From IMG/VR virus record IMGVR_UViG_3300030444_000240: a stretch of 30,976 bases of DNA; one strand, written 5' to 3'. The stretch comes from a virus (taxonomy: Duplodnaviria > Heunggongvirae > Uroviricota > Caudoviricetes). A model generated the notes under the pieces. The model was given only the letters and a program-made list of their open reading frames with translations. It was not told the origin of the DNA and made no database searches. The position numbers and the translations under genes were made by a program. This document shows positions 3,268 to 30,976 of the stretch, piece after piece. Every line of letters begins with the position of its first letter. Within the stretch, counting starts at the first letter, position 1.

Positions 3268-3838
3268 TGGCATTCAGAATGAGTGAACAACCACGGACCA
3301 TAAAAATTTATAATCTGCTGGCCGGAACTAATGAATTTATTGGTGAAGGTGACGCATATATTCCACCTCATACAGGTCTGCCTGCAAACAGTACCGATAT
3401 TGCACNNNNNNNNNNNNNNNNNNNNNNNNNNNNNNNNNNNNNNNNNNNNNNNNNNNNNNNNNNNNNNNNNCATCTCGTTGAAGATCATCGGGGTAAAACG
3501 GTTTATGACGTGGCTTCCGGCGACGCGTTATTTATTTCTGAACTCGGACCGCTACCGGAAAATGTTACCTGGTTGTCGCCGGGAGGGGAATATCAGAAGT
3601 GGAACGGCACAGCCTGGGTGAAGGATACGGAAGCAGAAAAACTGTTCCGGATCCGGGAGGCAGAAGAAACAAAAAACAGCCTGATGCAGGTAGCCAGTGA
3701 GCATATTGCGCCACTTCAGGATGCTGTAGATCTGGAAATCGCAACGGAGGAAGAAATCTCGTTGCTGGAAGCATGGAAGAAGTATCGGGTGTTGCTGAAC
3801 CGTGTTGATACATCAACTGCACCTGATATTGAGTGGCC
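3141..3838. repeat. Direct repeat copy 1 (stf 3' end plus tfa), about 700 bp, nearly identical by eye to 27794-28482
   Basis: Aligned by eye: tattggtgctcatacgcact... through ...gatattga(g/a)tggcc, with scattered substitutions. Copy 1 contains the N gap. Confidence 0.8.
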
Positions 3839-3860
3839 GATAATTCCTGTAACATCATAG
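3267..3860 (+). CDS. tfa: Tail fiber assembly protein (Tfa), copy 1; interrupted by an N gap
   Basis: [46 protein letters not shown] ... matches lambda Tfa as recalled; the ATG overlaps the stf stop (TAATG). Residues across 3406-3470 are unknown. Confidence 0.85.
3406..3470. other. Assembly gap or masked bases (65 N)
   Basis: Run of n characters in the sequence. Confidence 1.
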
Positions 3861-3972
3861 TCATTATTTATTTGTTTTGCTGACATGTTGTATACGACAA
3901 CGTGTCAGCAGTTTGACTGGTATTATAACGAATATATTGTAATGTTTTCTGGTGTTATTAATTGTTGTTTTA

Positions 3973-4926: not shown

Positions 4927-5157
4927 TCTACCTTTGGGTCTTTATTGTTGTCTATCAAGATATAATATTCAGGCTGGAGTGGCTAATGTTGATCTACTTA
5001 TTTTCTCCCGGTAAGTCAGTTTATCGCGATATAAGCCGCATTTGATTTTGGCGACTATGGTCGTGTTAGGTATGTATCTGGCGTGTTACTGCGCCAGATT
5101 AAATATAAACCAATAATATTAAAGGGTGTTACTCTCTTGACAGATTTAGGGAACAAA

Positions 5158-5393
5158 TCACTCGTCAGCTGACTCCCAAGTATCTTTCAGAGTTTCCTGA
5201 ACAAAAGTTTTAGCTGAATCTTTATCGGCGGTGCGCCTAACAGAAAAACCATCGTTGCTGGTGGCTTTTACGATCATCTCCACATCGTCATAATGCTCGC
5301 CAATGTATTGGGTTAATTCTTCCTTTAATGCGTCTACAGCGCCGTTTGGCATTTGGTCATTTTGTCTTTGGCTATGGAGATCTCAATACGCAT
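5158..5393 (-). pseudogene. dinI: DinI-family protein gene, apparently frameshifted near its 5' end
   Basis: ORF 5158-5352 ends ...[12 protein letters not shown] (DinI-like C-terminus). An upstream ATG at 5393 in another frame encodes [11 protein letters not shown] (DinI-like N-terminus) before a stop. A LexA box lies immediately upstream. Confidence 0.5.
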
Positions 5394-5406
5394 AACATTT
5401 CTTTTG

Positions 5407-5426
5407 TACTGCGTTTGTAGACAGTA
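5407..5426 (-). promoter_or_regulatory. Putative LexA (SOS) box upstream of the dinI-like gene
   Basis: TACTGCGTTTGTAGACAGTA fits CTG-N10-CAG with palindromic TACTG/CAGTA ends, 13 nt upstream of the ATG at 5393. Confidence 0.5.
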
Positions 5427-5634
5427 TTATTCTTATCTGTGTAAATAAACAGTATCAAGACTTCGTTTTAGCTGCATAAGAAAAAAGAGATGGATACATT
5501 CGGAAAGATTTTGATGGTGGTAGGCTAAGTGAATAGCCTAAAGGTGTTTTACCCCAATTATTCCCCGGTATTTCTCCGCATAAAAAACAATCATAAAAAC
5601 AACAGCCATAATAGGCTGGTTCTTAAGGGATTTT

Positions 5635-5674
5635 TGGTCCACGAGAGAATTTGAACCTCCGACCCCCGACACCC
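5635..5674 (-). other. tRNA 3'-end-like fragment (tRNA-Pro-like T-arm and acceptor, ending CCA); possible att remnant
   Basis: Reverse complement reads GGGGTCGGAGGTTCAAATTCTCTCGTGGACCA, resembling a tRNA T-loop and acceptor 3' end. No D-arm or anticodon arm upstream, and the T-stem pairing is imperfect. Confidence 0.3.
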
Positions 5675-5696
5675 CATAATGGTGTAATTAATCAGG

Positions 5697-6065
5697 TTAA
5701 ATATTTAGCAGATCCTCTACAATATCATTAAACCCAGATGCCTGTTTAGATACAGAATTGAATAAGTCTCTAAGTGCTTGTGTTTGCTCAAAAGTTTCCC
5801 AAAGTGTTTTATAACTTGGCGTTACAATTGCTAATACTAAGCCTTCCGCCCATGACCATTCATGTTCATCAAAATAGTAGCGATATTTTCTGCTGTATAT
5901 AACAAAATCCTTTTCCTTATATTTAGCATGAAACACAACTTGAATTATATCCTGTGTACCATTAACAAGGTTTTCAGGCGCATCAATTGCCATCCAATTT
6001 ATCATTTTTTGGACAGTTAACTTATTTAATGAAACAATTAGCTTTGTGGTTTTATCGTTATGCAT
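5697..6065 (-). CDS. Hypothetical protein (122 aa), second gene of a two-gene operon
   Basis: ORF in AT-rich DNA; its ATG lies 2 nt after the stop of the upstream ORF (TAAttATG). No recognisable motifs. Confidence 0.5.
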   Translation of the reverse strand: MHNDKTTKLIVSLNKLTVQKMINWMAIDAPENLVNGTQDIIQVVFHAKYKEKDFVIYSRKYRYYFDEHEWSWAEGLVLAIVTPSYKTLWETFEQTQALRDLFNSVSKQASGFNDIVEDLLNI

Positions 6066-6067
6066 AA

Positions 6068-6529
6068 TTAGTCCAGTTGCATATCTTTCACAATTTCGTT
6101 AACTCTTGAGTTGAGTATACTCAACTTCTCATAGAGCTTCCAGGCTTGGTCTTGGTCATTGATATTAATGGAGATTTCTTTTCTTCGAAAGATTCCTTTG
6201 GGTTTGACTTCATCAAAAAATATATCAATCTTTGAGCGTTCCTTGGTTGGAAGCCTGCTGAAAAGGCTTTCAGTTAGCACTGCACACTCAGTAAACTCCT
6301 TACGTATAAATTCTTTCTGAGTAACCCAGTCTCCAATAGCATCATTTATCAATGAGGCTTTTTTTTGAAGATTGCTATGGATTTCAGGTATTCGAACCTT
6401 GTTTCTGAGAGTGGCCTTCAATGAACGCGTCGTAAAAAAAAGTTTTACAGTTACAACAAAACCGACAATACCCGCTAGGGAGGATATGTCAGTTACCGTC
6501 TGTGATAGGGGCCAAGTCAGGATATCCAT
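6068..6529 (-). CDS. Hypothetical protein (153 aa) with one predicted N-terminal transmembrane helix, first gene of a two-gene operon
   Basis: Hydrophobic stretch SSLAGIVGFVVTVKLFF near the N-terminus; tightly coupled to the downstream ORF. Confidence 0.5.
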   Translation of the reverse strand: MDILTWPLSQTVTDISSLAGIVGFVVTVKLFFTTRSLKATLRNKVRIPEIHSNLQKKASLINDAIGDWVTQKEFIRKEFTECAVLTESLFSRLPTKERSKIDIFFDEVKPKGIFRRKEISININDQDQAWKLYEKLSILNSRVNEIVKDMQLD

Positions 6530-6559
6530 GATGAAAAATCCAATGCTTAAGTTGATACG

Positions 6560-6585
6560 AAAAAACCCGCATATGCGGGTTTTTT
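6560..6585 (-). terminator. Intrinsic terminator-like hairpin (bidirectional)
   Basis: A-run, cccgc-atat-gcggg stem-loop, T6 run. Confidence 0.5.
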
Positions 6586-6711
6586 CGTCGCTCGGGAGCC
6601 GCGGCTCCTTTGCGTATCCTTTTTTGTCTCCTCACCGTCTGGTCGGTGTCCTGCTGAGACTGCTAACTTCCTGTTTTTGTTGGTGTTGTCCTTACACCGT
6701 CCAATCATGAT

Positions 6712-6744
6712 TGGTGGAGCTGGCGGGAGTTGAACCCGAGTCCG
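6712..6744 (-). other. tmRNA (ssrA) 3'-end-like fragment; probable attachment-site core remnant
   Basis: Reverse complement GGACTCGGGTTCAACTCCCGCCAGCTCCACCA closely matches the E. coli ssrA 3' end as recalled (one mismatch). No tmRNA body upstream. Confidence 0.5.
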
Positions 6745-6816
6745 TATTTTTATAATTAGCTGAAATAAAACGATTAATACTAACCATTTTATTCTGCGGA
6801 TCTTTTGCGGCTCCTT

Positions 6817-7716
6817 TTATGTCTGGATGTGGTCGTCAACACATCCTCTTTTAAATACAGGCGCTTTTACCTTAGTTGGATCATCTGTTTTAAAGATTTT
6901 CAATCGTTCACTGAAGAACATTACCTCAGATCCTTTGTACCGATCTTGAGCACTGTAGTTTATTCCATATACTAATGATGATGTCTTATACATAGCTTGG
7001 ATCTCAGGAGTGTTATCGTAAGAAACAATCCAAGGTGTTTTAATATTATTCTGTACGACTTTTGCAACCCTAACATGATCATCATGATTATAATGGTTGA
7101 TATATAAACCTTTACCTTTTATGTAATAAGGTGGATCCAAATATGTTAATGAGTTTTGTGGCAATTGAATAACTATTTTTTTAATGAAATCAATTGCATC
7201 CATGTTATATAAATCTATTCTGTGACGATTTTCTGATATTTTATGGATTCGAGAAATCAAATCACTCTTATTATAGCGAGCGTCAAGCTTCCATTTCCCT
7301 TCTTGATTTTTACCGCCAATTACTCCACCTTTTAATATTCCAGAACGATTTGTTCTATTGAGAAAAAAGGTTGAGAAACCAATTGTTAAAAGATCATGGT
7401 CTTTAGGATTATTAATTATATCTTTCTGCCTAAACCATTCATCCATTGTAACTTCAGTTCTTTCAATTAAAGAACATAATTGATCTGCATGATTTAATAC
7501 ACTGTGCCAAAAAGCATAAACAGAAATATTAATATCATTAAGGATGATTTTTTCAGCTGCATTTAGATGTAACAGTTTCAATGCTAAACCAGCACCCCCA
7601 GCATATGGTTCGGCATAATGTATAGGCGAAAGATTATTTTCTTCAATAAGCCGAAGCATGAAATTTGCAAGCTTGCCTTTACCGCCAGGATAGCGAAGTG
7701 GGGTGTTAAAACGCAT
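6817..7716 (-). CDS. DNA N6-adenine methyltransferase, Dam/D12 class
   Basis: N-terminal RYPGGK, EPYAGGAG (AdoMet-binding motif I-like) and DPPY catalytic motif; 299 aa. Confidence 0.8.
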   Translation of the reverse strand: MRFNTPLRYPGGKGKLANFMLRLIEENNLSPIHYAEPYAGGAGLALKLLHLNAAEKIILNDINISVYAFWHSVLNHADQLCSLIERTEVTMDEWFRQKDIINNPKDHDLLTIGFSTFFLNRTNRSGILKGGVIGGKNQEGKWKLDARYNKSDLISRIHKISENRHRIDLYNMDAIDFIKKIVIQLPQNSLTYLDPPYYIKGKGLYINHYNHDDHVRVAKVVQNNIKTPWIVSYDNTPEIQAMYKTSSLVYGINYSAQDRYKGSEVMFFSERLKIFKTDDPTKVKAPVFKRGCVDDHIQT

Positions 7717-7750
7717 ATGATACCTCTAAATGTCAGATCTAAAGTATATC

Positions 7751-7789
7751 AAAAAAAGGGCTTTGTGGCCATCACATAAAGCCCTTTTT
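7751..7789 (-). terminator. Intrinsic terminator between the OLD-like gene and the MTase gene
   Basis: gggcttt-loop-aaagccc hairpin flanked by an A7 run and a T5 run; on the minus strand the stem is followed by a T-run. Confidence 0.6.
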
Positions 7790-7795
7790 AATCAA

Positions 7796-9529
7796 TTAGT
7801 TATCTGACAGATATGATGAGATGGTAGCAGAATCGACACCATGTCCACTTGTCATAATAACTTTAAGACTCTTTATTAGTTCATTCTTGAAGCTATCCGA
7901 TTGCACAGGATTTTTCTCGACCCAATATCGATATGGGTTATCTTTAACTCGCCCTTTTACTTGGGCCTGAAATTGAGTCGTATGTGCAAAATCTTTAAAC
8001 AGTTTTCTAACTATCCCGCCATGGTTTTTGTTAACTTTTTTATAATTATCTATAAGGATTTTTAAATCAATCGGAGCGTTACCAATCTTTAGCGTTGCAA
8101 TTATGTCTTTAGCTGTTTTCATAAAAACAGCTTTTGTAAATTTATTTTTATTTTCCCAATATGCATCATCAGGTGGTAAATTATATAAAAACTCAAAAAT
8201 CATTTGGTCTGGAGGTAAGGTGCTTGGAAGCAAACATAAGTTTTTTTCTTTTTTGGCTTTTTTTGCATTAGCACTATTGTCGTGAACAACATCACCGTCT
8301 AAGACGATCAAGCTTTTAGCTGTAAATTCTGGTATTTTTCTTGCCATTAAGTCAAGCATGGCAGAGCAGCTAATATTTATATTCCCTAATGGATTTAATA
8401 TTTTATTTATTTTTCGATCTGTTATCAATTGTTTGAAAAAGTCGAAACCTTCTTTGTCTTCAAAATATACATTTGCCTTTGGAAGACAAATGTCATCATT
8501 AATTTTTACAGTTTCAACATGTAAATCAGCGTGGATATCTGTCCATGAAAGATTATTCTTTGTTTTAATATCTCCATATGTGTCTGTAAGATATATTGTT
8601 TTAAAGCTATCACTATCTTGTTTTGAACGATTATAGATATCCTCTATTATTAATGGAGAGTGCGAGGTCATGATTATTTGCAGATCGTATTGTTTTGCTG
8701 CTTTAGTTAGAATATTAATTAGCTCTAACTGTGCAGCAGGGAAAAGACCTGCATCGGCTTCATCAATTAACAATATTCCGCCATGATAATCAGAATAAGT
8801 TTCCTTCAATCTTTTAAATGAAAAAATTGCTTGGATTAATTGTCCAACATTATCTTCACCAACAGATACTGATTGGTGATCATAATTGTCACCATGGACA
8901 ACCATTGAATCGATAGTACCTTTTGTTGCTGTTACTGAGCTTCCATTGTTTTTTAGTAAGAGTTGGTTACTCATCATTCTAATTTCATCAGAATTTTCAT
9001 TGATGTACTGAACATCCCGTGTTGAGTAATCAGTCCTTAATGTAATAGGAAGAAGTCGTGCTAAGCTTAAAAAAATAACAGGATGAGTAACGTTTCTACT
9101 TTGGTTTTTTTCCGGTATTGAATCATTTCCCCTGACTACAGGCCTTGATTTATCTCTGTCACTGTAGCTGTATAAACCTAATGTTAGTTTTTCAAGATGT
9201 TTGTTCGATGCACCATCATAGACACTAATTTTGACGTCCATTGAACCAGGAACATCAAATTGTTCTGAAAGCCTAAAATGTTCGCTGAAAGCTGACTTGA
9301 AGCTGCCATTTGTTAATGTTTTATATTGTGTTAAATCAGTCTCAGGGTTTTTGGTAAAGTCCTTTGTAAAGCTAAATATTTGGGCGATAATGCCAAGAAT
9401 TGTGGATTTAGATGTGCCATTTTTACCACAAATAACAGTTAGGCGAGAACCAAACTCGATGTTTATATTTTTCAGTCCGCGAAACTTCACAACATTTATA
9501 TTTTTTAGTTTGGTAATTTGATTTGCCAT
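7796..9529 (-). CDS. OLD-family ATP-dependent nuclease-like protein (ABC ATPase plus C-terminal Toprim-like domain)
   Basis: Walker A ICGKNGTSKST, Walker B ILLIDEAD, TSHSP motif, then C-terminal VYFEDKEGFDFF and LIVLDGD (DxD). Start chosen at MANQITKL (9529), which has a GGAG 9-13 nt upstream and a palindromic hairpin beyond it; the ORF track extends to 9580. Confidence 0.7.
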   Translation of the reverse strand: MANQITKLKNINVVKFRGLKNINIEFGSRLTVICGKNGTSKSTILGIIAQIFSFTKDFTKNPETDLTQYKTLTNGSFKSAFSEHFRLSEQFDVPGSMDVKISVYDGASNKHLEKLTLGLYSYSDRDKSRPVVRGNDSIPEKNQSRNVTHPVIFLSLARLLPITLRTDYSTRDVQYINENSDEIRMMSNQLLLKNNGSSVTATKGTIDSMVVHGDNYDHQSVSVGEDNVGQLIQAIFSFKRLKETYSDYHGGILLIDEADAGLFPAAQLELINILTKAAKQYDLQIIMTSHSPLIIEDIYNRSKQDSDSFKTIYLTDTYGDIKTKNNLSWTDIHADLHVETVKINDDICLPKANVYFEDKEGFDFFKQLITDRKINKILNPLGNINISCSAMLDLMARKIPEFTAKSLIVLDGDVVHDNSANAKKAKKEKNLCLLPSTLPPDQMIFEFLYNLPPDDAYWENKNKFTKAVFMKTAKDIIATLKIGNAPIDLKILIDNYKKVNKNHGGIVRKLFKDFAHTTQFQAQVKGRVKDNPYRYWVEKNPVQSDSFKNELIKSLKVIMTSGHGVDSATISSYLSDN

Positions 9530-9551
9530 GTTTCTATCTTGCTCCGTAAAA

Positions 9552-9570
9552 TGGCCACAAATTGTGGCCA
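9552..9570. other. Perfect 9+1+9 palindrome between the int 3' end and the OLD-like start
   Basis: tggccacaa-a-ttgtggcca; on the minus strand it is followed by ATTTTA. Could be the int terminator or a recombination or regulatory site. Confidence 0.4.
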
Positions 9571-9587
9571 ATAGTTTCATGCTTGGA

Positions 9588-10754
9588 TTATATTGTTATC
9601 TTCTTCAAGCTTGTTTGTCCATCATATTCCTTCAGATATGAGCCATAGTGCCTGAAAAGCATCTCAGGCCCTTTATGCCCCATTTGAGCTGCAAGCCAAA
9701 ACAGGTTTGCTCCCCGGCTGATATGTCTGGTGGCGAATGTATGCCTGGTTTGATATGGGTTTCTGTAACGAATACCTGCTTTTCGCAATGTTGGCACCCA
9801 TGCTTTTTTCCTAATTGCATCAGCACTTGCCCAGGGTTTATTGGTCTTTGGATCTTCAAAGACAGTAGCATCCTTCATGAATGTAAATGGCTTCTGGTTT
9901 ATCAACGCCAACATTGCTTCTTCAGTCAGTTCAACTTTACGGGTACCGGCTTTTGTCTTTGTTCCTTTGATAACTCCGACAACACTTGCGCTCTGAACAT
10001 GGGCTGTTTTTCCAACAAAGTCGATATCATGCCATCGTAGGGCACATAATTCAGAACTACGCAGGCCTGTATGTATGGCGAACCGGAACAGATTTTCCCA
10101 TTGTTTGTTTCCGGCTGCTGCTAGTAATGCATCAACTTCTGCTGGTGATAGCGGATCAACCACATAGCTGCTTTCTGCTTCTGACTTATCACTTTGGTAG
10201 CGCGAAGCAGTTACCAACGATACGGGGTTAATTTGAAGTACCCCATCGGTTACGGCTTCATCAAGTGCTGACCGCAGGAAAGATAACTGGTTGCGAATTG
10301 TTTTTAAGGTCGTTTTCTGGCTTTGAATCCACGCTTTCAGGATTGCTGGTGTTAATTCACTTGCAGGGCAAATGTGGAGTGAGGCTAACGCACTACGGCA
10401 TTTTTTATAACCACCAATCGTAGATGGTGAAAGTTTTCTCGTTTCGCAGATTTCAAGGTATTCGTCCAGGTACATTTTTACCGTTTTGCCTGCAGCAGCA
10501 TTACCAAAAATTTTCAAACGAGCAGAACGGGGAAAATATTCCGCATAAATGAATGTTCCCCTTTCGATCTTATTATGAATTTCGCCGAGTGTGCGCTCGG
10601 CGTATTTAATGTTCTTTGGTGTTACTTCCAGATTGGAAAGAGGCTCACGACATTTAACGCCTTTGTAGGTGAAAGTTATATTGATCGTTTCGCCCTGGCG
10701 GTGTTTCCTGATTGTTACGCCGCGCGGTAGTTTGAGCAGTTTTGTCTGGCCCAT
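9588..10754 (-). CDS. int: Tyrosine site-specific integrase
   Basis: 388 aa; C-terminal catalytic region with RHTFATRH (HxxR) and LFWLAAQMGHKGPEMLFRHYGSY (catalytic Tyr); N-terminal arm-binding-like segment. Confidence 0.9.
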   Translation of the reverse strand: MGQTKLLKLPRGVTIRKHRQGETINITFTYKGVKCREPLSNLEVTPKNIKYAERTLGEIHNKIERGTFIYAEYFPRSARLKIFGNAAAGKTVKMYLDEYLEICETRKLSPSTIGGYKKCRSALASLHICPASELTPAILKAWIQSQKTTLKTIRNQLSFLRSALDEAVTDGVLQINPVSLVTASRYQSDKSEAESSYVVDPLSPAEVDALLAAAGNKQWENLFRFAIHTGLRSSELCALRWHDIDFVGKTAHVQSASVVGVIKGTKTKAGTRKVELTEEAMLALINQKPFTFMKDATVFEDPKTNKPWASADAIRKKAWVPTLRKAGIRYRNPYQTRHTFATRHISRGANLFWLAAQMGHKGPEMLFRHYGSYLKEYDGQTSLKKITI

Positions 10755-10933
10755 TTTGCAACCTCACTAAGATCAATCCACCTCTCCTTAACGCCTTCAA
10801 CCTTTAAAACCTGAACACCTTCACGCCAAACACCGCGCTGTACACGTTTGTTTATTGCTTCAGGAGTTTCGCCAGTTTCTTTGCAATAAGTTGAGATAGG
10901 AACACAATCGAGGTTCAGCATATGTTTCTCCAC
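10715..10933 (-). CDS. xis: Excisionase-like small DNA-binding protein
   Basis: 72-aa ORF overlapping the int start on the same strand, as in lambdoid xis-int; basic, W-rich small protein. Confidence 0.55.
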   Translation of the reverse strand: MEKHMLNLDCVPISTYCKETGETPEAINKRVQRGVWREGVQVLKVEGVKERWIDLSEVAKWARQNCSNYRAA

Positions 10934-10980
10934 TTAGCCCGCTGCACATGGGCAGTAATATCAAATTCCAGTCCTGATAA

Positions 10981-11196
10981 TTAATTTTGTTCTCTGGTTG
11001 CTACTTGTTTTATTGGCCTGATGCTGTCCAGGAGCAGACGGCGGCGCATGTTTGGCGCGCCCCAACGGTAACCAGTCTTTTTGTCGTAGGATTCACAACG
11101 TCCGACAACCCAGGAGGTTTCAGTGGAATGTAATTTCATCCGCTTTTCACCGTCTCGGGTGATAACAATTCCTGTATGAGTTTTTATCACGCTCAT
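10981..11196 (-). CDS. Hypothetical phage early protein (71 aa)
   Basis: ORF in the leftward early operon; start overlaps the upstream gene stop. Confidence 0.4.
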   Translation of the reverse strand: MSVIKTHTGIVITRDGEKRMKLHSTETSWVVGRCESYDKKTGYRWGAPNMRRRLLLDSIRPIKQVATREQN

Positions 11197-11555
11197 TTTT
11201 TATTCTCCGGTGCTTTCGGCATTACTGCCCAGTGGGTAATATTGACGTTTTCAAGGTCCCCGACCTGAAATGTCCACTGCCATTCTCCGGTTTCTTTTTG
11301 CCCCCATGTGTACCAGAGAGAACGCCAGCCAATCAGCCAGCCTTCTCCATTAGCATCAAATAACAGAACACTTTCATGTGCTGGCGGCAGTTCAGCTGAC
11401 ACTGGTATTACTTTGTTTTCCAGTGCTGCACATTTAGCTTCAAGCGCATCGAATTTACGTATCAGGTATTCAGCATCCGTTTCATTCACTTTCAGATCTC
11501 GCGGTACACATTTCCCGCGAAGAAACCCTTCCATTTCGAAAACATTCATGCGCAT
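11193..11555 (-). CDS. Hypothetical phage early protein (120 aa)
   Basis: ORF in the leftward early operon, translationally coupled to its neighbours. Confidence 0.45.
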   Translation of the reverse strand: MRMNVFEMEGFLRGKCVPRDLKVNETDAEYLIRKFDALEAKCAALENKVIPVSAELPPAHESVLLFDANGEGWLIGWRSLWYTWGQKETGEWQWTFQVGDLENVNITHWAVMPKAPENKK

Positions 11556-12082
11556 TTGCGTAACTCCGATAACTCGTTGAAGCGCTCAATAAACATCCCG
11601 TAGGCATGGCTCGGTGCCAGTGGAATCACGTTGAACATCTCTGTTGCCGGGATACCTTCCAGTACAGGCCAGAAAGAGCCATCATCAAGCCCGAGATCGC
11701 GGCGTTCGGTTGCCAGCATGATGAGATCGGCATATTTCACAGGCGTGCTCATAACCGTGGGTAACCCGTATTTCTCACGGATTACGGCGTCTATTTTTTC
11801 TTCCATCCGTTTATAGTCGGGAAGAAGGCGTTTCAGTGGCGCGGGGATGTCCTGGCAATACGCTTCTGTCGCATCATGCATTAACGCTTCAAAAGCAAAT
11901 TCCTGCGGTACCAGCTGGCTGCAAAGCACCGCATGTTGGGCGACGCTGTAGAAGTGTGAAAGATGGCCGGCAAAGCGACAGATATTTGAAAGGGAAACCG
12001 CGATATCGTTAATATCGATGTTGTCTTTATTTATCCTGTCATAATAAAAATGCTTCCCGGAAAAAGTTTTAATAAATGACAT
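11546..12082 (-). CDS. HD-domain phosphohydrolase-like protein
   Basis: FAGHLSHFYSVAQH ... HDATEAY resembles H...HD metal-dependent phosphohydrolase motifs. Start set at MSFIKTF (GGAG RBS); the ORF track extends to 12142. Confidence 0.55.
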   Translation of the reverse strand: MSFIKTFSGKHFYYDRINKDNIDINDIAVSLSNICRFAGHLSHFYSVAQHAVLCSQLVPQEFAFEALMHDATEAYCQDIPAPLKRLLPDYKRMEEKIDAVIREKYGLPTVMSTPVKYADLIMLATERRDLGLDDGSFWPVLEGIPATEMFNVIPLAPSHAYGMFIERFNELSELRKCA

Positions 12083-12627
12083 TTTGTTCTCCACGTTATA
12101 TGCGCTGCACCGCGCTGAATTCGGGTAAAAGGAAGCCCTCACCGTCCGGCGATTATTGAGTCAATTACATTTCCATAAATGCCCCCGTAGGGGCGGTTAG
12201 TTTCTCCACAAAACAGAGAAGAACACCTGCGGTGGCAGCCGCCCGGATGGATTGGGTTATGAGCCCGTCGTCCGATGATGCTCTTCTCTGTTTTGTAAAA
12301 AGGACGGTACCAGCCGGAAGCAAGGGTACAAGCTGGTACCGCCAAGACAACACACAGCATAAAGTTGTGGTGCCGGGTGCCTCCCGGTGCCTGGCGAAGG
12401 TTGTACACCAGACGGGTGGGTATCCACAGAAGGTCGACTGTCAGCCTTAACCTTAACCCGCGTGCGCTGAGCCGCATTCACCACAACGCTAAGGATTCTC
12501 TCTGGTTGAAAATACTTAGCTGTTATGTGCCTGCTTTTAGCCACATCAGGCGAGGTGGACCTGGTTATTCCCCAACAACAAGGATTCGGTATAATCTGGA
12601 TATCCCAACAACAGGTAGGAAGGAAAT

Positions 12628-12711
12628 ATGTACGTAGATAGCAATGAAAAATTTCATGTTCCGGTAAATCAGAGACCAGCACCGATCCCTGAGCCGAAAC
12701 CTGAAATGTAA
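12628..12711 (+). CDS. Small ORF (27 aa) preceding the membrane protein gene
   Basis: TATAAT at 12590-12595, AGGAAGG RBS, ATG at 12628; encodes MYVDSNEKFHVPVNQRPAPIPEPKPEM. Speculative. Confidence 0.3.
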   Translation: MYVDSNEKFHVPVNQRPAPIPEPKPEM

Positions 12712-12721
12712 GGGAATAGAG

Positions 12722-13201
12722 ATGACTCGAGACGATCTAGCATTCGATATTCATTATTCTTTCTTTCTTGAGAAAATGAATTACACCCTTTTAAATCGGA
12801 TAGACAAGAGCATAACTCTTGTTCTCATTGTCTTGGGCTTTTCTGTTTTTGCGCCATATAGCAATATGTTTATTTTTGGCGCATCTGTAGCTATTTTGTC
12901 GGTGCTTCAATTGGTATACCAATTTGGGCAGGAAGCTGGCTTATCAAAGGAACAGATGCGACAGTATAAAAGGTTGATTGTTGAGTTTTCCTCCCTTTCT
13001 GATGACGAACTACGCACTCGGTTTTTAAAGGTTCAAGACGCTGATAGTAATCCATGGAGATCTTTACAAGATGCTGCGTTCAAACGGACCTGTATTGCGC
13101 TGGGACGTGTTGATGAGTCAGAAATATCATTCATGCATAGCGTTATCGCATGGTTTGCTGGAGATTTGCCTCGGTCAAAAAGGTGTAATAATGACAAATA
13201 G
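12722..13201 (+). CDS. Membrane protein of unknown function (two predicted TM helices), convergent with cI
   Basis: 159 aa; hydrophobic segments ITLVLIVLGFSVFAPY and IFGASVAILSVLQLVY. Lies in the immunity region on the strand opposite the repressor, with its own putative promoter. Confidence 0.55.
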   Translation: MTRDDLAFDIHYSFFLEKMNYTLLNRIDKSITLVLIVLGFSVFAPYSNMFIFGASVAILSVLQLVYQFGQEAGLSKEQMRQYKRLIVEFSSLSDDELRTRFLKVQDADSNPWRSLQDAAFKRTCIALGRVDESEISFMHSVIAWFAGDLPRSKRCNNDK

Positions 13202-13431
13202 AATTCCCATAATCCCTAACCATGTACCTCCAAAGCCCAGACCACCATCACCAAAGTCACACAGGCTTTATGAGTATGAATTAATAATGGATTCTATATT
13301 GAGATGACCAAATGAATGCATTTATATATACATGGAAAGAGGATCATATACCCTTAAAACCTCGTCCTTCACCGCCAGAACCGAAGCCAAAATCCCGTTA
13401 AGTGTTGGGGATCTCCAGATTGTTAAAGAGC

Positions 13432-15169: not shown

Positions 15170-16002
15170 ACAGTTTAACGGCAAATAACCGTTTGTCGCA
15201 ACAGCTGGTGGTCAGTGTCGCTGAACACCTGTTGTTACGGCATGAATGCAGATTACCAAATCTCCTGGCTGTAAGTAACCACAGAGAACTTTACCTGACT
15301 GTGGGGGGCGAGTTGTGCAGGAACTTAACCGCTGGTTTCGTGACGGAAGAGGACTTTATGTTCATGTTATTCGTTGGGAGCCAGAAACACAGCGCGTTAT
15401 CTATCTTCGCAAAGACTACCCGCATGAGTGCTTTAGTCCTTTGTGGAAATTCAGGCGTGATTTTGTTGAGTGTGAAGGACCACCAGCACATTGATTCTGC
15501 CATTCCGGGACGTTACACTGTTCAGGCACCTTATAAAGCGGGTGCCGGGATTGGCGTCCTGGAATTGATCAAGGCGATATATGACGCGCCAGCGTCTTTT
15601 TTATCGTCCGCATTTGCTCACATCAAAGTTATGGTGGGCTGGGCGGGGGCATCGAAAGATGCGCCGGTTTCCTTGATCACCGGTTACGCCAACCCCGTTC
15701 AGTTCACCACCAGCGAAATTGGCGTTTCCGGTGGTGGAAGTATTTCACCGATCAAGGAGGCTGCCATCATGGCTACTGTCCCAGCCCTCACTCGTCTGAA
15801 TGATGAAGACTTACATAAACTCAGTTATGTAACAACTGCACTACGTGCTCTGCGCAAGGTAACTCTTTCGGATCCGCAGGCACATCAGGTTCTGGTAGAA
15901 ACCCTTCTTAACTTGCAAGCTGAACGTATTCGTCTGGCGGATAAGGCTAATTTTCATATTCACCGTCTCCTGAATATCAGCGGAGGGCATCGTCATGCTT
16001 AA
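15166..16002 (+). CDS. Hypothetical early ORF, possibly a composite of several small genes or frameshifted
   Basis: A 278-aa ORF, but a protein-like alternative frame runs through 15309-15480 after a G6 tract (15303-15308), and there is an internal RBS-ATG at about 15769 (AAGGAGG ... ATGGCTACT). Confidence 0.3.
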   Translation: MNSLTANNRLSQQLVVSVAEHLLLRHECRLPNLLAVSNHRELYLTVGGELCRNLTAGFVTEEDFMFMLFVGSQKHSALSIFAKTTRMSALVLCGNSGVILLSVKDHQHIDSAIPGRYTVQAPYKAGAGIGVLELIKAIYDAPASFLSSAFAHIKVMVGWAGASKDAPVSLITGYANPVQFTTSEIGVSGGGSISPIKEAAIMATVPALTRLNDEDLHKLSYVTTALRALRKVTLSDPQAHQVLVETLLNLQAERIRLADKANFHIHRLLNISGGHRHA

Positions 16003-26251: not shown

Positions 26252-26944
26252 TTATTCAATGGCATCTAAAATTTCATATGCTTCATTAACAAAATCTCTT
26301 ATTTCTTTTAGACATAACTCTACAAAAGGAATGACCTCATAATCTGTACCGTGGAATCTTATTTTTTTCTCTTCGGTTATGTTAATATTGATGGGGATTC
26401 CGTTCCCTGATTTTTCAACTTTACCATTTTCAATGGTGAAGTCTTCAATTCTCTGTCCATTGGTGAAATTATCTCTGAAAATGATTTTTGATGTAGCATC
26501 TGTCTTAATTAATCCAAACCCATTGATATTAACATCTATTCCTCGAACAATACTATCTTCACTCAATGGGATTGGTTTCCTATGTTTTACTTCGTTCGTG
26601 AGGTTACACATCATTCCAAGCCAGTTATTACCAGTTTGATAGTCTTGGATTGAAACAAAAACTGCATATAATGGAGATAATTCAGGTTGCTGGCAGTTTA
26701 ATTTTTTAATAAAGAAAGCATCTAAAAATTTTTTCTCGCCGTATGGGAAATAAATTTTTGGCCGAGGGGTTGATTGGTTAGTGGTATGTTTTTCATAACT
26801 ATCATTCGCAACGTATTCTAATGCGCTTCTTAAATTTTCAAGTATTGATTTAACCTTTACTGGTTTTATTTGTTGCGTATCTTTTAATATTTCAACGGTT
26901 TCTTCAACTTCTTGCAATAAATCTAACGTTCCTTCTCTGGACAT
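26252..26944 (-). CDS. Hypothetical protein (230 aa), AT-rich moron between the lysis cassette and cos
   Basis: ORF of unknown family in low-GC DNA, opposite in orientation to the flanking phage genes. Confidence 0.5.
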   Translation of the reverse strand: MSREGTLDLLQEVEETVEILKDTQQIKPVKVKSILENLRSALEYVANDSYEKHTTNQSTPRPKIYFPYGEKKFLDAFFIKKLNCQQPELSPLYAVFVSIQDYQTGNNWLGMMCNLTNEVKHRKPIPLSEDSIVRGIDVNINGFGLIKTDATSKIIFRDNFTNGQRIEDFTIENGKVEKSGNGIPININITEEKKIRFHGTDYEVIPFVELCLKEIRDFVNEAYEILDAIE

Positions 26945-27287: not shown

Positions 27288-27908
27288 ATGGAAGTCAACA
27301 AAAAGCAGCTGGCTGACATTTTCGGTGCGAGTATCCGTACCATTCAGAACTGGCAGGAACAGGGAATGCCCGTTCTGCGAGGCGGTGGCAAGGGTAATGA
27401 GGTGCTTTATGACTCTGCCGCCGTTATAAAATGGTATGCCGAAAGGGATGCTGAAATTGAGAACGAAAAGCTGCGCCGGGAGGTTGAAGAACTGCGCCAG
27501 GCCAGCGAGGCAGATCTCCAGCCAGGGACTATTGAGTACGAACGCCATCGACTTACGCGTGCGCAGGCCGACGCACAGGAACTGAAGAATGCCAGAGACT
27601 CCGCTGAAGTGGTGGAAACCGCATTCTGTACTTTCGTGCTGTCGCGGATCGCAGGTGAAATTGCCAGTATTCTCGACGGGATCCCCCTGTCGGTGCAGCG
27701 GCGTTTTCCGGAACTGGAAAACCGACATGTTGATTTCCTGAAACGGGATATCATCAAAGCCATGAACAAAGCAGCCGCGCTGGATGAACTGATATTGGTG
27801 CTCATACGCACTCCGTTGCGATTGGTTCACATGGACATACCATCACCGTTAACGCTGCTGGTAACGCGGAAAACACCGTCAAAAACATCGCATTTAACTA
27901 TATTGTGA
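27288..27908 (+). pseudogene. nu1: Terminase small subunit Nu1, 3'-truncated and fused out of frame to the 3' end of a tail fiber gene
   Basis: MEVNKKQLADIFGASIRTIQNWQEQGMPVLRGGGKGNEVLYDSAAVIKWY... matches lambda Nu1 to about residue 169 (AAALDELI); from about 27794 the DNA matches the stf 3' end read in another frame. Confidence 0.8.
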
Positions 27909-28482
27909 GGCTTGCATAATGGCATTCAGAATGAGTGAACAACCACGGACCATAAAAATTTATAATCTGCTGGCCGGAACTAATGAATTTATTGGTGAAG
28001 GTGACGCATATATTCCGCCTCATACAGGTCTGCCAGCAAACAGTACCGATATTGCACCGCCAGATATTCCGGCAGGCTTCGTGGCTGTTTTCAACAGTGA
28101 TGAGGCATCGTGGCATCTCGTTGAAGATCATCGGGGTAAAACGGTTTATGACGTGGCTTCCGGCGACGCGTTATTTATTTCTGAACTCGGTCCGTTACCG
28201 GAAAATGCCACTTGGTTATCCCCGGAAGGGGAGTTTCAGAAGTGGAACGGCACAGCCTGGGTGAAAGATGCAGAAGCAGAAAAACTATTCCGGATCCGGG
28301 AGGCGGAAGAAACAAAAAACAGCCTGATGCAGGCAGCGAATGAGCATATTGCGCCACTTCAGGATGCTGTAGATCTGGAAATCGCAACGGAGGAAGAAAA
28401 CTCGTTGCTGGAAGCCTGGAAAAAGTATCGGGTGTTGCTGAACCGTGTTAATACAACAACTGCTCCGGATATTGAATGGCCA
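27794..28482. repeat. Direct repeat copy 2 (stf 3' end plus tfa), nearly identical by eye to 3141-3838
   Basis: See copy 1; the junction with Nu1 is at about 27794-27796. Confidence 0.8.
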
Positions 28483-28500
28483 GTAGCACCTATAGGGTAA
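27919..28500 (+). CDS. tfa: Tail fiber assembly protein (Tfa), copy 2, intact
   Basis: 193 aa, [74 protein letters not shown]...; nearly identical to copy 1 until the C-terminal tail. Confidence 0.9.
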
Positions 28501-29358
28501 ATTCGTAATGATTACCTAAATACGTTATTCTTTTGTTCAAAAAGTGATTTTGCTATAGGTAGGGAGTATGTTCTTGGATTAAGAATAAAAATCGCCATGA
28601 AAGAGCTTCATGGCGAGTACATAAACGTACAAAATGTGATGAAAGTAGAGTGGCGTAAGCCACTATATTAAGATGTGACAATAGCGAACAAAAGTAAATA
28701 ACATTTTATGGACGTTTAATTGTTAATTATAAAAACTAGAGTGCCCGATATTGTTTATCTTGCTTTAAAATAATGTACTCAAACCAAATTTTTGAGCTAA
28801 AAGCTCAAATAATATAAATGCAATGATAATGTTTAATAAGACAATTAGCTTGCTTTGTATTTTCATTTCGGAATACTGTTAAGTAACTTTGATGACCCTA
28901 ACAATAGATCGGAATTTTCTTAGAGTCAATGGTCACTGTTTTTGTTTGCAAAGCAAATGTTTTGGTGGTTATAAGTTGTCTTAATATAGTCACGCATGCA
29001 ACTTGTTCCATGCGGAGATTAAAGATTGGAATATAACGCGAAGATGGAATTAAATTACATTTGCAATAATCAATTTATTATTACTCAATAATTACCGATA
29101 TTATTATTGTAAATTAATCATTAGAGTGCAAAAAGAAATGTAACGGCAAAATAAGAGGACGATAGCTGAGAAAAAAGCGTGCTTTCCCAATCTGGGGCAA
29201 ATCACGTCTGAATGACACCTGAAAACAGGTAGTAGCCTCAAGAAGGCTTGGAATATTCTTCTTTAATGTTATGTAATTCATTGATTTTTCGTGTACGATT
29301 TTAAGACATTTATTCCAAGAAAAATTTTTAACTCTTTGATTTTTCGACTCTGTATCAT

Positions 29359-29420
29359 CGGTCTCGAAAACCGGAGTAGGGGCAACTCTACCGGGGGTTC
29401 AAATCCCCCTCTCTCCGCCA
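29359..29420 (+). other. 3' 62 nt of tRNA-Ser(CGA) (serU-like): anticodon arm through CCA; prophage att core, not a complete tRNA
   Basis: CGGTCTCGAAAACCGGAGTAGGGGCAACTCTACCGGGGGTTCAAATCCCCCTCTCTCCGCCA has anticodon loop CTCGAAA, a long variable arm and a T-arm; there is no matching acceptor 5' strand or D-arm upstream. Confidence 0.7.
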
Positions 29421-29438
29421 CTTTATCAATGACTTATC

Positions 29439-29491
29439 NNNNNNNNNNNNNNNNNNNNNNNNNNNNNNNNNNNNNNNNNNNNNNNNNNNNN
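29439..29491. other. Assembly gap or masked bases (53 N)
   Basis: Run of n characters 18 nt after the tRNA fragment. Confidence 1.
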
Positions 29492-29996
29492 GAAGGGTTA
29501 GATCGTCACTGTTTTCTGTTCGATACTGTGACATTCAGCACTTGATTCGCTATGGATCTGACAGGAAGGTTTTGAGCGAAAATTTGCAGTTATTCAGTCG
29601 TTTTCTTATCGGTCACCATTATTCTTTTAGACATTGATCCTACAAAGCTGCCGCAAAGTTGGTGGTAGGAACTGAAGTTGCGTAGAGAAGGGGTCAATAC
29701 CCGGAGGCAAACATGGGCTGGCAAAAGTGTAGCGGTATTAGGCGCAGCTATTTAGCCTAGTTATGTTTTATGAAAACTTGATATCATATAAGTGTCTTAC
29801 TTATTGGCTGTAAATAAGTTTTTCCTAAGGAATTGTTTCTTGAGTATCATTTGTAACTGTAACGGAATTTATAATCCTTTGCTTTATTGTTACGGTATTT
29901 TTTATCACACCCTATTTTTTATGTGGTTTTTTATACTGAAGTTTGGCAAAGTGAACTTTATATGCATATACTTCATCCTGGTTTCAGTTAAGTTGG

Positions 29997-30749
29997 GTGG
30001 ATGATATGGCAACTACATGTTCAGTTATATTGATTTTGGAGTCCTTTGATGTTTATTTCGGAAAAGAGAGTGTGTTTCTGGAGAGAGGTTCATCTGTACT
30101 TGTCGACTCTAGCTCTAGAGATTTTTTCCTGACATATCCTGAAAGAGTGATAGTGGCGGATTTTGGCGCTGAGTTTATTAGTCGCTATTTGAAAGCTAAT
30201 AACTTAAGGGATATTTCTGATTGTAGGGAATATCCATCTTATTTAAAAATAAACTTTGCTGACTTCAGTTTAATTAAAGGATTAATTAGTTGGGCTAATC
30301 ACTGTGCTGAATACATAGAAATTTTTGATGAGTCTATTGCTTTTACATGTCTCTCTGCATTTTCTTCTGAAAAACAATTTGGAGTATTTCTGTTTGAATG
30401 TTTGAAAAGCACAGGGGCTAAAGTTAAAACGATTATTCATACGGATTTATCTGCACCATGGCGTCTTAAGGATATATCATCAAGATTATATCTCAGCGAA
30501 AGTTTACTAAAGAGGAAATTGAAAGAAGAGGGGGTATCATTCAGTAAGATCATACTTGATGAGAGGATGCAAATGGCTGAATATTTACTCTGCACTCGTT
30601 GTTATCCTATTAGTAAAGTAGCTAAGGTCTGTGGTTATGCCAGTGTCTCATACTTTACTTATGTATTTAGACGTTATTTTGGTGTTTCTCCAAGTCAATA
30701 CTCTCAGAGGAGTTCAGAAAGTAAAATTCTTACTCACCAGGGAATCTGA
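29997..30749 (+). CDS. AraC-family transcriptional regulator (AppY/EnvY-like)
   Basis: 250 aa; C-terminal HTH region WRLKDISSRLYLSESLLKRKLKEEGVSFSKIILDERMQMAEYLL ... YFTYVFRRYFGVSPSQY. Confidence 0.8.
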   Translation: MDDMATTCSVILILESFDVYFGKESVFLERGSSVLVDSSSRDFFLTYPERVIVADFGAEFISRYLKANNLRDISDCREYPSYLKINFADFSLIKGLISWANHCAEYIEIFDESIAFTCLSAFSSEKQFGVFLFECLKSTGAKVKTIIHTDLSAPWRLKDISSRLYLSESLLKRKLKEEGVSFSKIILDERMQMAEYLLCTRCYPISKVAKVCGYASVSYFTYVFRRYFGVSPSQYSQRSSESKILTHQGI

Positions 30750-30753
30750 TCAT

Positions 30754-30976
30754 TGTTCTTGCCCCCTTATTTCCAGACAGGGGGTGTATCTTAAGTTAAC
30801 GTTACCCGCTGACGTCGATATTCTCGCGGAGAGCGATAACCCAACGCACTGTGCGGATGGTTTTCATTGTAATGTTCGATCGCCACTGCAAGATTATGCA
30901 ATGCCGTTCTTACATTCGGTTTCGGCATGAACGCGATGTAGTCTTCCTTCATCGTTTTCACGAACCTTTCTGCCAT
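30754..30976 (-). mobile_element. IS3-family (IS2-like) element, partial: terminal inverted repeat and transposase C-terminus; continues beyond the window
   Basis: The minus-strand ORF ends ...[55 protein letters not shown], like the IS2 InsD C-terminus as recalled; flanking DNA (...GCCCCCTTATTTCCAGACA..., ...GAGCGATAACCCAACGCACTGTGCGGATG...) resembles the IS2 end. Confidence 0.7.

What the first reader, a model, noticed from the sequence alone, without database searches (positions are those of the whole stretch)
28501..29420. ORF-free AT-rich b-region ending in a serU-type att core, followed by a gap
After tfa copy 2 there are about 850 bp without convincing ORFs, containing a 9-bp-stem hairpin (28592-28616), then the 62-nt tRNA-Ser(CGA) 3' fragment, which marks the prophage or host junction, then an N gap 18 nt later. 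The boundary is therefore not fully resolved in this assembly.
Basis: partly seen in the sequence, partly recalled or inferred. Interest (0 to 1): 0.4.

Follow-up and report, generated by a model that had tools for sequence, protein, structure and literature searches.

The report
Prophage end at a relocated serU copy
The tRNA-Ser fragment is a real right-end attachment scar of a serU-specific lambda-like prophage, but it sits at a displaced, decaying copy of the serU 3' end in front of an acid-resistance regulator gene, not at the serU locus, so this is an ordinary kind of feature in an unusual place.

Summary
After tfa (27919-28500) come 858 bp at 31% GC with no credible ORF, then a hairpin at 28592-28616. 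The exact last 62 nt of serU follow at 29359-29420, then 18 nt, then 53 N.

The DNA to the right is not the serU locus. It is a 278-279 nt copy of the serU-yodB spacer that ends at a fixed breakpoint (29699/29700). An IS630-like scrap, a patE-like AraC gene and an IS scrap follow. About 508 complete E. coli genomes carry this serU relic, and so do the viable phages mEp332 and ev099. It began as the right end of an e14-like prophage that sat at true serU.

In two genomes a complete lambdoid prophage lies inside the relic, with matching attL and attR. The relic therefore works as a secondary attachment site. The window preserves only the attR side. Its only integrase is ssrA-type.

The N run replaces an invariant 52-nt interval and hides no tRNA gene. 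The hairpin is a minus-strand intrinsic terminator that travels with the tfa module. Known kind of feature, modest interest.

The parts
27919..28500 (+). tfa copy 2 (tail fibre assembly gene), the last coding gene before the non-coding stretch
   Evidence: Pfam Caudo_TAP, E = 6e-43. Annotated as tail fiber assembly protein in S43.
28501..29077 (.). Segment A: AT-rich non-coding module that travels with tfa
   Evidence: GC 0.305. Also found at 95-96% identity behind tfa in prophages at the ydfJ (Qin) site, e.g. WCHEC020032, and in phages mEp332 and PhiR70_1. No protein-family hits for its small ORFs.
28592..28616 (-). Intrinsic (Rho-independent) terminator for leftward transcription: 10-bp stem TCGCCATGAA/TTCATGGCGA, then a U tract on the minus strand
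   Evidence: Terminator scan found 11 pairs plus TTTTTATTCT. RNA fold gives -18.2 kcal/mol, z = -5.84, with 0 of 200 shuffles as stable. Invariant in 5 homologues.
29078..29163 (.). AT-rich linker between segment A and the att arm
   Evidence: GC 0.256. Present in ETEC1734 and mEp332 but not in the ydfJ-site copy.
29164..29358 (+). P arm of a serU-type attP, the phage-derived side of attR
   Evidence: This stretch alone is shared with serU prophages that have unrelated tail genes: AVS0973 next to zinT, and SerU-LTIIb at 93%. One difference from the attR of the intact ETEC1734 serU prophage.
29247..29257 (+). Candidate arm-type integrase site CTTGGAATATT. An inverted copy TATTCCAAG lies at 29311-29319. 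The direct repeat TTGATTTTTCG lies at 29281-29291 and 29336-29346.
   Evidence: The same 11-mer occurs, with a shorter CTTGGAAT copy 9 nt upstream, in the P' arm next to int in ETEC1734 (L007 6906). Conserved in the Z1323HEC0067 attR arm. Binding was not tested.
29359..29420 (+). serU 3' fragment (att core plus the rest of the tRNA 3' half), 62 nt
   Evidence: 62 of 62 identity to serU, from anticodon-stem position 28 to CCA. Carries the host or relic type of variable arm (AGTAGGGGCAACTCTACC), as expected on the attR side.
29421..29699 (+). Relic of the serU-yodB spacer (the B' flank). It includes the N run.
   Evidence: About 96% identical to the native spacer in 5405 of 5426 genomes; best native match 98.6% (SCAID WND2-2021). 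It ends at ...GGGGTCAATA|CCCGGAGG in every relic copy.
29439..29491 (.). Run of 53 N
   Evidence: The interval is 52 nt, near-identical in sequence (single-base variants in L004 and L011) (TCCCGACTTCCCGCCTTGCTTTTCCTAAACAGAACAATCGTAGAATATTCTT), in 12 gap-free native and relic homologues.
29700..29754 (.). IS630-family scrap at the relic breakpoint
   Evidence: 55 nt match at 93% to the interior of an IS630-family transposase gene on a plasmid (H85).
29997..30749 (+). AraC-family regulator, PatE-like
   Evidence: HTH_AraC and HTH_18 domains. 245 of 247 aa identical to the AraC gene of the thrW prophage remnant of O157:H7 strain 7636. PatE is described as the CP-933H-encoded AraC-like regulator. 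The identification rests on position and sequence.
30791..30976 (-). IS2/IS3-family transposase scrap that runs off the window
   Evidence: Annotated 'integrase core domain-containing protein', partial, in S43, and InsD of IS2 in PhiR70_1.

Best explanation
Window 28501-29420 is the non-coding right end of a defective serU-specific lambdoid prophage. It has three parts: a tfa-linked AT-rich spacer with a leftward terminator, the P arm of the phage att site, and the 62-nt serU 3' half. In structure it is a true attR (P arm, core, B' flank).

The site it occupies is not serU. It is a pseudo-serU relic made of the serU 3' half plus 278-279 nt of the serU-yodB spacer. The relic arose once, as the right end of an e14-like prophage (pinE, GIY-YIG) sitting at native serU. 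It was then transplanted, through an IS630-linked breakpoint, to a position in front of patE in a thrW-bounded island of the CP-933H type.

Because the relic keeps the anticodon stem-loop where crossover occurs, serU-type integrases can still use it as a secondary attB. A lambdoid phage integrated there, which gave the junction seen in the window. Later deletions (Nu1 fused to the stf 3' end) and replacement of the left end removed the cognate int and attL. The junction is now frozen.

The same block (tfa, b-region, attR, relic, patE) has also been picked up by lambda-att phages.

Shown: the identity of every segment, the single origin of the relic, its use as attB in two genomes, and its presence in viable phages.

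Inferred: that the window's own junction arose by integrase-mediated insertion rather than by homologous import; the role of the terminator; the arm-site motifs.
For: - Core and arm: 62 of 62 identity to serU. The P arm is shared by serU prophages with unrelated tails.
- Genuine serU model: ETEC1734 reads mtfA, serU, int ... tfa, identical b-region, serU', yodB. Its attL copy of the tRNA carries two compensatory variable-arm changes, which places the crossover 5' of the variable arm.
- Ectopic position: native serU is followed by yodB-zinT. In the window the similarity ends at 29699 and patE follows.
- Island end: S43, NCTC11023 and UK_Dog_Liverpool continue with IS scrap, thrW', yagP', paoD.
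- Single origin: the breakpoint is identical in the window, S43, UK_Dog_Liverpool, O157, mEp332 and PhiR70_1, and in 29 IMG/VR contigs.
- Origin of the relic: the e14-type arm joined to serU' lies at native serU next to yodB in 13 genomes, e.g. MB15. The same arm abuts the relic in O157 and in 20 IMG/VR contigs.
- Use as attB: in Z1323HEC0067 and CD45 the e14 arm and core join a P' arm and a serU-type int. In Z1323HEC0067 an apparently near-complete prophage carrying nle effector genes (the stretch between the two fetched loci was not examined) follows, then P arm, core, relic and patE. Its attL has the phage-type variable arm and an intact T-loop. Its attR has the relic-type variable arm and the relic's TT-to-GG T-loop mutation.
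- Phage carriage: mEp332 forms plaques. Its record starts at the lambda core GCTTTTTTATACTAA and holds the block internally. ev099 has the lambda core 2.3 kb to the right of the relic, next to int.
Against: - The window holds no attL and no serU-type int, so integrase-mediated insertion cannot be shown for this particular lineage.
- The window ends 25 nt before the point where S43-type and mEp332-type sequences diverge, so the real right-hand boundary is not seen.
- The left half of the window is an ssrA-type phage, so the prophage is a hybrid or the assembly is rearranged.
- Z1323HEC0067 and CD45 share a frameshifted int and may represent one ancestral event.
- The true content of the N run in this genome is unknown. 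It is 53 N against 52 nt in the homologues.
Confidence: 0.75

Rival explanations
1. One reading: this is the prophage/host boundary at the chromosomal serU locus, left unresolved by an assembly gap.
For: The fragment is serU-derived. The first 278 nt to its right resemble the serU-yodB spacer. Identical tfa, b-region and fragment do sit at true serU in ETEC1734 and other genomes.
Against: The flank carries the relic-specific breakpoint at 29699/29700 and continues into patE and an IS scrap, not yodB-zinT. The closest complete genomes place it next to thrW', yagP' and paoD. The gap corresponds to an invariant 52-nt interval.
Confidence: 0.03
2. The junction is internal cargo. The window's prophage descends from a phage like mEp332 or ev099 that already carried the whole block (tfa, b-region, serU', relic, patE, IS scrap) in its b-region. 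Alternatively, the block was imported by homologous recombination. In either case no integration at the relic happened in this lineage, and the real att lies beyond the window.
For: Three phage records hold the block internally, 2.3 kb from a lambda-type attP. The window is collinear with mEp332 up to its last base. Its left half carries a non-cognate ssrA-type int, which shows that modules have been exchanged. Recombination among lambdoid prophages at serU, ssrA and ydfJ is documented (PMC7067040).
Against: The right 1485 nt are closer to S43 (99.93%) than to mEp332 (99.33%). S43-type genomes keep patE, IS scrap and thrW' in the same island position as O157, where no lambdoid phage lies to the left. 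This fits an in-place island plus an inserted phage.
Confidence: 0.2
3. The 'ORF-free' region encodes a small functional product on the minus strand that ends at the 28592-28616 terminator: a small RNA or a small hydrophobic protein such as the 33-aa ORF at 28765-28866.
For: There is a strong minus-strand terminator and a promoter-like site on the minus strand at 28929-28901. Segment A is conserved at 95-100% across prophages with different att sites. Two phage records annotate small hypothetical ORFs here.
Against: No Rfam family reaches threshold. There are no Pfam or PHROG hits. The 33-aa ORF has no Shine-Dalgarno sequence, read directly from the sequence. ORF lengths are within chance expectation. 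Promoter-like sites are no more frequent than in shuffles. The two phage records annotate different ORFs. There is too little sequence variation to test coding or covariation.
Confidence: 0.12

Closest known systems
attR (P arm, core, B') of tyrosine-integrase phages that insert in the anticodon loop of tRNA genes (the lambda model for arms; the P4/P22/HP1 style of tRNA targeting; from established knowledge)
   Same: The tRNA 3' part is duplicated from the anticodon stem to CCA. A phage arm of about 190 bp lies on the side away from int. The intact gene is rebuilt at the int-proximal end. All three are shown in ETEC1734.
   Different: Here the B' side is a transplanted 278-nt relic in another island, and no partner attL or int remains.
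SerU-LTIIb prophage (GenBank KU052038) and other lambdoid prophages at serU in STEC and ETEC
   Same: That record annotates the same 62-nt tRNA-Ser pseudogene next to yodB. Its arm is 93% identical over window 29236-29438. serU is a recognised prophage site (PMC7067040).
   Different: Those prophages are at the native locus. The window copy is at the relic in front of patE.
Leftover att duplications at the ends of cryptic prophages (for example the thrW 3' fragment that bounds the thrW island)
   Same: A short, non-functional tRNA 3' fragment that marks an old integration. The thrW' fragment lies about 1.8 kb to the right of the serU' fragment in S43.
   Different: The serU' relic took host flank with it to a new locus. 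It is carried by phages and has been reused as an attachment site.
Lambda specialised transducing phages of the bio type, and secondary attachment sites of lambda (classical genetics, from established knowledge)
   Same: Viable phages (mEp332, ev099) carry an attR-type junction plus the DNA that lay to its right. Integration at a non-primary site that contains the core is shown in Z1323HEC0067.
   Different: These are natural isolates. The cargo is a regulator gene with IS scraps. The secondary site has a perfect core because it is a copy of the primary one. The capture mechanism is inferred, not shown.
Lambda sib/tI retroregulatory terminator
   Same: A leftward-facing hairpin terminator in the b-region, on the far side of att from int.
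   Different: It lies about 740 nt from the core. It travels with tfa into prophages that have other att modules. mEp332 has its own lambda-type tI hairpin in its P arm, read from the sequence.

Membership tests
tRNA-gene attR of an integrated prophage | Exact copy of the tRNA 3' portion at the prophage end away from int | tested here: met
   62 of 62 identity to serU at 29359-29420, directly after the tail-fibre end of the prophage.
tRNA-gene attR of an integrated prophage | Phage-specific arm next to the core, shared by phages with the same integration specificity | tested here: met
   The 187-nt arm is shared with serU prophages that have unrelated tails. The motif CTTGGAATATT occurs in both the P and P' arms. 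Protein binding was not tested.
tRNA-gene attR of an integrated prophage | Partner attL with the complete tRNA gene and a cognate integrase at the other end | tested here: not met
   The window has no second core copy and no tRNA. Its only int goes with an ssrA core at 6711-6744. The feature is met in ETEC1734 and Z1323HEC0067.
tRNA-gene attR of an integrated prophage | Flank beyond the core is the chromosomal neighbourhood of that tRNA gene | tested here: not met
   Only 278-279 nt of the serU-yodB spacer are present, then IS630 scrap and patE. Native serU has yodB-zinT.
Secondary attachment site (attB copy) used by site-specific integration | Reciprocal attL and attR flank one prophage at the secondary site, with markers partitioned at the crossover | tested here: met
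   Met in Z1323HEC0067: attL has the e14 arm with the phage-type variable arm and T-loop, and attR has the P arm with the relic-type variable arm and the TT-to-GG T-loop mutation. CD45 has the same attL and int. The window itself shows only the attR half.
Host or island DNA carried in a viable phage genome (specialised-transduction type) | Hybrid att junction plus adjacent non-phage DNA inside a packaged, plaque-forming genome | tested here: met
   mEp332 forms plaques, and the ev099 record is in the order expected for a packaged genome. Both hold serU', relic, patE and IS scraps between tfa and the lambda attP.
Host or island DNA carried in a viable phage genome (specialised-transduction type) | Origin by imprecise excision (an illegitimate phage/host joint, with loss of genes from the other prophage end) | not testable with these tools
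   The joints are with IS scraps. The ancestral phage is unknown.
Assembly gap that hides unresolved sequence | Flanks not collinear in gap-free relatives, or an interval of variable content | tested here: not met
   Both flanks are collinear with 12 gap-free homologues. The interval is an invariant 52 nt against 53 N. ARAGORN finds no tRNA in gap-closed S43, mEp332 or ev099.
Lambda sib/tI-type retroregulator | Terminator or RNase III hairpin linked to the int-att module, immediately beyond attP | tested here: not met
   The hairpin is about 740 nt from the core. It co-occurs with tfa in ydfJ-site prophages that have a different att.

The most novel reading that the evidence does not exclude
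The pseudo-serU relic is a portable landing pad. It sits in a thrW island and also inside viable lambda-att phages (mEp332, ev099, PhiR70_1). Any lysogen or island carrier therefore gains a second, fully competent attB for serU-specific phages, placed directly upstream of patE. This would allow prophage-in-prophage nesting. It would also place effector-carrying phages (nleB2, nleC, nleH and nleF in Z1323HEC0067) next to an acid-resistance and type III secretion regulator. In effect, one phage would spread the attachment site of another.
Probability: 0.3. Interest if true: 0.55.

Novelty: new member of a known kind. Interest (0 to 1): 0.35.

Why it matters
For annotation: a tRNA 3' fragment is not proof that a prophage meets the chromosome at that tRNA locus. 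Here it would mis-assign the integration site (serU instead of the thrW island) and cut off the element before patE.

For biology: a decaying pseudo-tRNA can still serve as an attachment site and can travel inside phages. That gives a concrete route by which lambdoid prophages stack up and exchange their cargo ends in pathogenic E. coli.

Tried and rejected
- Rfam scans of the window and of gap-closed S43 gave only sub-threshold hits over the fragment. The plastid psbI-rps4 hit is antisense to the tRNA-Ser T-arm, and the tmRNA hit covers 18 nt. Nothing was found in the b-region.
- IS009 scores above its gathering threshold, but it lies inside tfa, not in the finding.
- Seven small ORFs in the b-region were scanned against PHROGs and gave no hits. 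They were not scanned against Pfam.
- An alignment of five homologues of segment A was 98% identical, too uniform to test coding or covariation. No covariance model was built for that reason.
- I first took the N run to be exactly length-matched. A direct count shows 53 N against 52 nt, and 65 N against 56 nt for the other run. Whether they are masks or size-estimated gaps cannot be decided.
- I first read the junction as a pure fossil carried as cargo. The chimeric-attL search showed that the relic really is used for integration, so the fossil-only view became a rival.
- An exact-pattern scan of one genome per species found no relic breakpoint.
- A literature search for 'serU' by word start was swamped by 'serum'.
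- The PatE paper (PMC3416394) is not held, so the PatE assignment rests on position, 99% identity to the O157 gene, and a secondary citation.
- No complete genome was collinear with the whole window.

Full report
**1. The observation**

The sequence is as described.
- tfa copy 2 ends at 28500 (Caudo_TAP).
- The next 858 bp have GC 0.31, against 0.48 in tfa.
- They hold only ORFs of 31-55 aa. None has a PHROG hit (they were not scanned against Pfam).
- The longest stop-free run (80 codons) is reached by 13% of shuffles.
- NCBI's PGAP pipeline annotates nothing there in the complete genomes listed.

The hairpin is at 28592-28616. It has a 10-bp stem (11 with a G-T pair), folding energy -18.2 kcal/mol and z = -5.8. 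It is followed by TTTTTATTCT on the minus strand, so it is a leftward intrinsic terminator.

29359-29420 equals the last 62 nt of serU, from the second base of the anticodon stem to CCA. ARAGORN finds no tRNA gene. Eighteen bases later, 53 N begin (29439-29491). A second N run lies in tfa copy 1 (3406-3470).

**2. What a genuine serU junction looks like**

Unoccupied serU is flanked as mtfA, serU, 570 bp, yodB, zinT.

ETEC1734 has an intact lambdoid prophage there. The order is serU, int, DUF4224, exonuclease ... stf, tfa, the same b-region, the 62-nt fragment, yodB. The rebuilt tRNA at the int end carries two compensatory changes in the variable arm (A-T to G-C). The fragment at the far end keeps the host version. 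The crossover therefore lies 5' of the variable arm, in the anticodon stem-loop.

The 187 bp before the core (29164-29350) recur on their own in serU prophages with unrelated tail genes. This marks them as the P arm.

The motif CTTGGAATATT occurs in this arm in direct and in inverted orientation. It also occurs, with a shorter CTTGGAAT copy 9 nt upstream, in the P' arm next to int. These are candidate arm-type sites. Binding was not tested.

The first 577 bp after tfa, including the terminator, recur behind tfa in prophages at the ydfJ (Qin) site. That segment belongs to the tail-fibre module, not to the att module. It most likely shields the late genes from converging leftward transcription (inference).

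**3. The window is not at serU**

The 278-279 nt after CCA match the serU-yodB spacer at about 96% in 5405 of 5426 genomes. The similarity then stops.

Every non-native copy ends at the same base...GGGGTCAATA|CCCGGAGG (window 29699/29700). This holds for the window, S43, UK_Dog_Liverpool, O157:H7, mEp332 and PhiR70_1. Native loci continue differently. The relic therefore arose once.

After the breakpoint come:
- a 55-nt IS630-family scrap;
- an AraC gene, 245 of 247 aa identical to the one in the thrW prophage remnant of O157:H7. PatE is described as the CP-933H AraC-like regulator;
- an IS2/IS3 scrap.

In S43, NCTC11023 and UK_Dog_Liverpool a 40-46-nt thrW 3' fragment follows, then yagP' and paoD. 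Its window-equivalent position is about 31239, beyond the window end.

About 508 complete genomes carry the relic. Twenty-nine IMG/VR contigs carry its breakpoint.

**4. Where the relic came from**

In O157:H7 and in 20 of the 29 IMG/VR contigs, the relic is preceded by a different arm. That arm belongs to an e14-like element with pinE and a GIY-YIG gene. The same arm joined to serU' sits at native serU next to yodB in 13 genomes, for example MB15.

So the relic is the right end of an e14-like serU prophage, together with 278 nt of host flank, moved to a position in front of patE. Many copies have decayed T-loops (TT to GG, or a 1-nt deletion) and one is truncated. mEp332 has a base change in the core. 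The relic behaves as a pseudogene.

**5. The relic is reused as an attachment site**

I built the predicted chimeric attL: the e14 arm, the core with the phage-type variable arm, then the P' arm of the ETEC1734 phage. It occurs whole in two complete genomes, Z1323HEC0067 and CD45.

Z1323HEC0067 reads in this order:
- pinE, GIY-YIG, then this attL;
- a serU-type int, DUF4224 and exonuclease;
- terminase, capsid and tail genes, then stf;
- nleB2, nleC', nleH, nleF;
- P arm, core, relic, patE.

Its attL has an intact phage-type T-loop. Its attR carries the relic's TT-to-GG mutation. This partition is what a crossover in the anticodon loop of the relic predicts.

CD45 has the same left end. Both share a frameshifted int, so they may record a single event.

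**6. The block also travels in phages**

mEp332 is a plaque-forming lambdoid phage of lambda immunity. Its record is in prophage order and starts at the lambda core GCTTTTTTATACTAA. It holds tfa, b-region, serU', relic, AraC gene and IS scraps just before its lambda P arm.

ev099 is recorded in cos-to-cos order. It has the same block, with the lambda core 2.3 kb to the right, next to int and xis. PhiR70_1 is similar.

**7. Reading of the window**

The junction at 29358/29359 is a true attR of a serU-type lambdoid prophage sitting at the relic. The prophage has since been gutted. Nu1 is fused to the last 126 nt of stf at about 27794, and the deletion endpoints differ from those in S43 and NCTC11023.

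Its cognate left end is gone. The only integrase in the window (9588-10754) belongs with an ssrA 3' core at 6711-6744.

I cannot show that this lineage acquired the junction by integration rather than by recombination with a phage or prophage that already had it. The right-hand 1485 nt are nearer to S43 (1 mismatch) than to mEp332 (10 mismatches). This favours the in-place reading.

**8. The gap**

In 12 gap-free native and relic homologues the interval is 52 nt and near-identical in sequence (L004 and L011 each differ at one base). Gap-closed sequence has no tRNA gene and no extra RNA family hit.

The N run is one base longer than that interval. The other N run is nine bases longer than its homologues. 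Both lie in sequences that occur more than once per genome. They may be masks or size-estimated gaps. Either way, the comparison gives no sign of a hidden feature.

**9. Verdict**

The feature is an ordinary kind (attR at a tRNA-derived site) in an unusual setting (a portable, reused pseudo-attB next to patE). Interest is modest.

Noticed in passing
window 6711-6744 (context 3860-10754): A 34-nt ssrA (tmRNA) 3' core lies between the b-region of tfa copy 1 and a D12 methyltransferase, an AAA_15/AAA_21 ATPase and an integrase (9588-10754). The two sides match the two opposite ends of the ssrA prophage of UK_Dog_Liverpool. This is an attP-like or tandem-prophage junction. It means the window's integrase is ssrA-specific, and the prophage that ends at serU' is a hybrid.
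   Followed up: partly
window 3406-3470: A second N run (65 N) lies inside tfa copy 1. Four homologues have 56 nt there. The 9-nt excess keeps the reading frame. Both N runs lie in sequences present more than once per genome.
   Followed up: partly
window about 27617-27794: Nu1 (terminase small subunit) is fused to the last 126 nt or so of stf, which removes all head and tail genes. S43 and NCTC11023 carry the same prophage at 99.6% identity but have different deletion endpoints. The structural region was apparently lost independently at least three times.
   Followed up: partly
window 29997-30749: A 250-aa AraC-family regulator, 99% identical to the AraC gene of the O157:H7 thrW prophage remnant (PatE by position). 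It is carried as cargo by phages mEp332, ev099 and PhiR70_1. Best PHROG hit: phrog_1450, of unknown function.
   Followed up: partly
L018 (PSS-10) about 2880-2900 and L019 (CT02) about 2880-2900: Copies of the e14-like pinE/GIY-YIG element at other loci carry CCGGTCTCaAAAACCGc where the serU core would start. This is a near-copy of the serU anticodon stem-loop with two changes. About 75 nt of shared sequence follow that is not tRNA. It may be the element's unrecombined attP or a variant specificity.
   Followed up: partly
IMG/VR loci L024, L028, L029, L031, L032, L035, L037, L040 (T-loop TT to GG); L020, L022 (1-nt deletion); L026 (truncated); L013 43818: The tRNA part of the relic is decaying in different ways in different copies. 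The TT-to-GG variant was nevertheless still used for integration in Z1323HEC0067.
   Followed up: yes
window 28262-28460 and 3619-3817: Rfam IS009 scores far above its gathering threshold (212 and 229 bits) inside both tfa coding sequences. The family model evidently captures conserved tfa sequence.
   Followed up: no
window 15526-15714: isrK (64 bits) and C4 antisense RNA (82 bits) lie side by side, both above gathering threshold, in the early region of the ssrA-type phage. This resembles a P1/P7-type antisense immunity module.
   Followed up: no
window 26252-26944 (minus strand): A 230-aa ORF sits between the lysis genes and Nu1. It has no Pfam hit and a full-length match to phrog_13652 (unknown function). 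It is oriented against the late operon, like an inserted accessory gene (moron).
   Followed up: no
L050 (Z1323HEC0067) 9609-13270: The prophage nested at the relic carries nleB2, nleC', nleH and nleF directly upstream of its attR. This places type III effector genes within 2 kb of patE.
   Followed up: no
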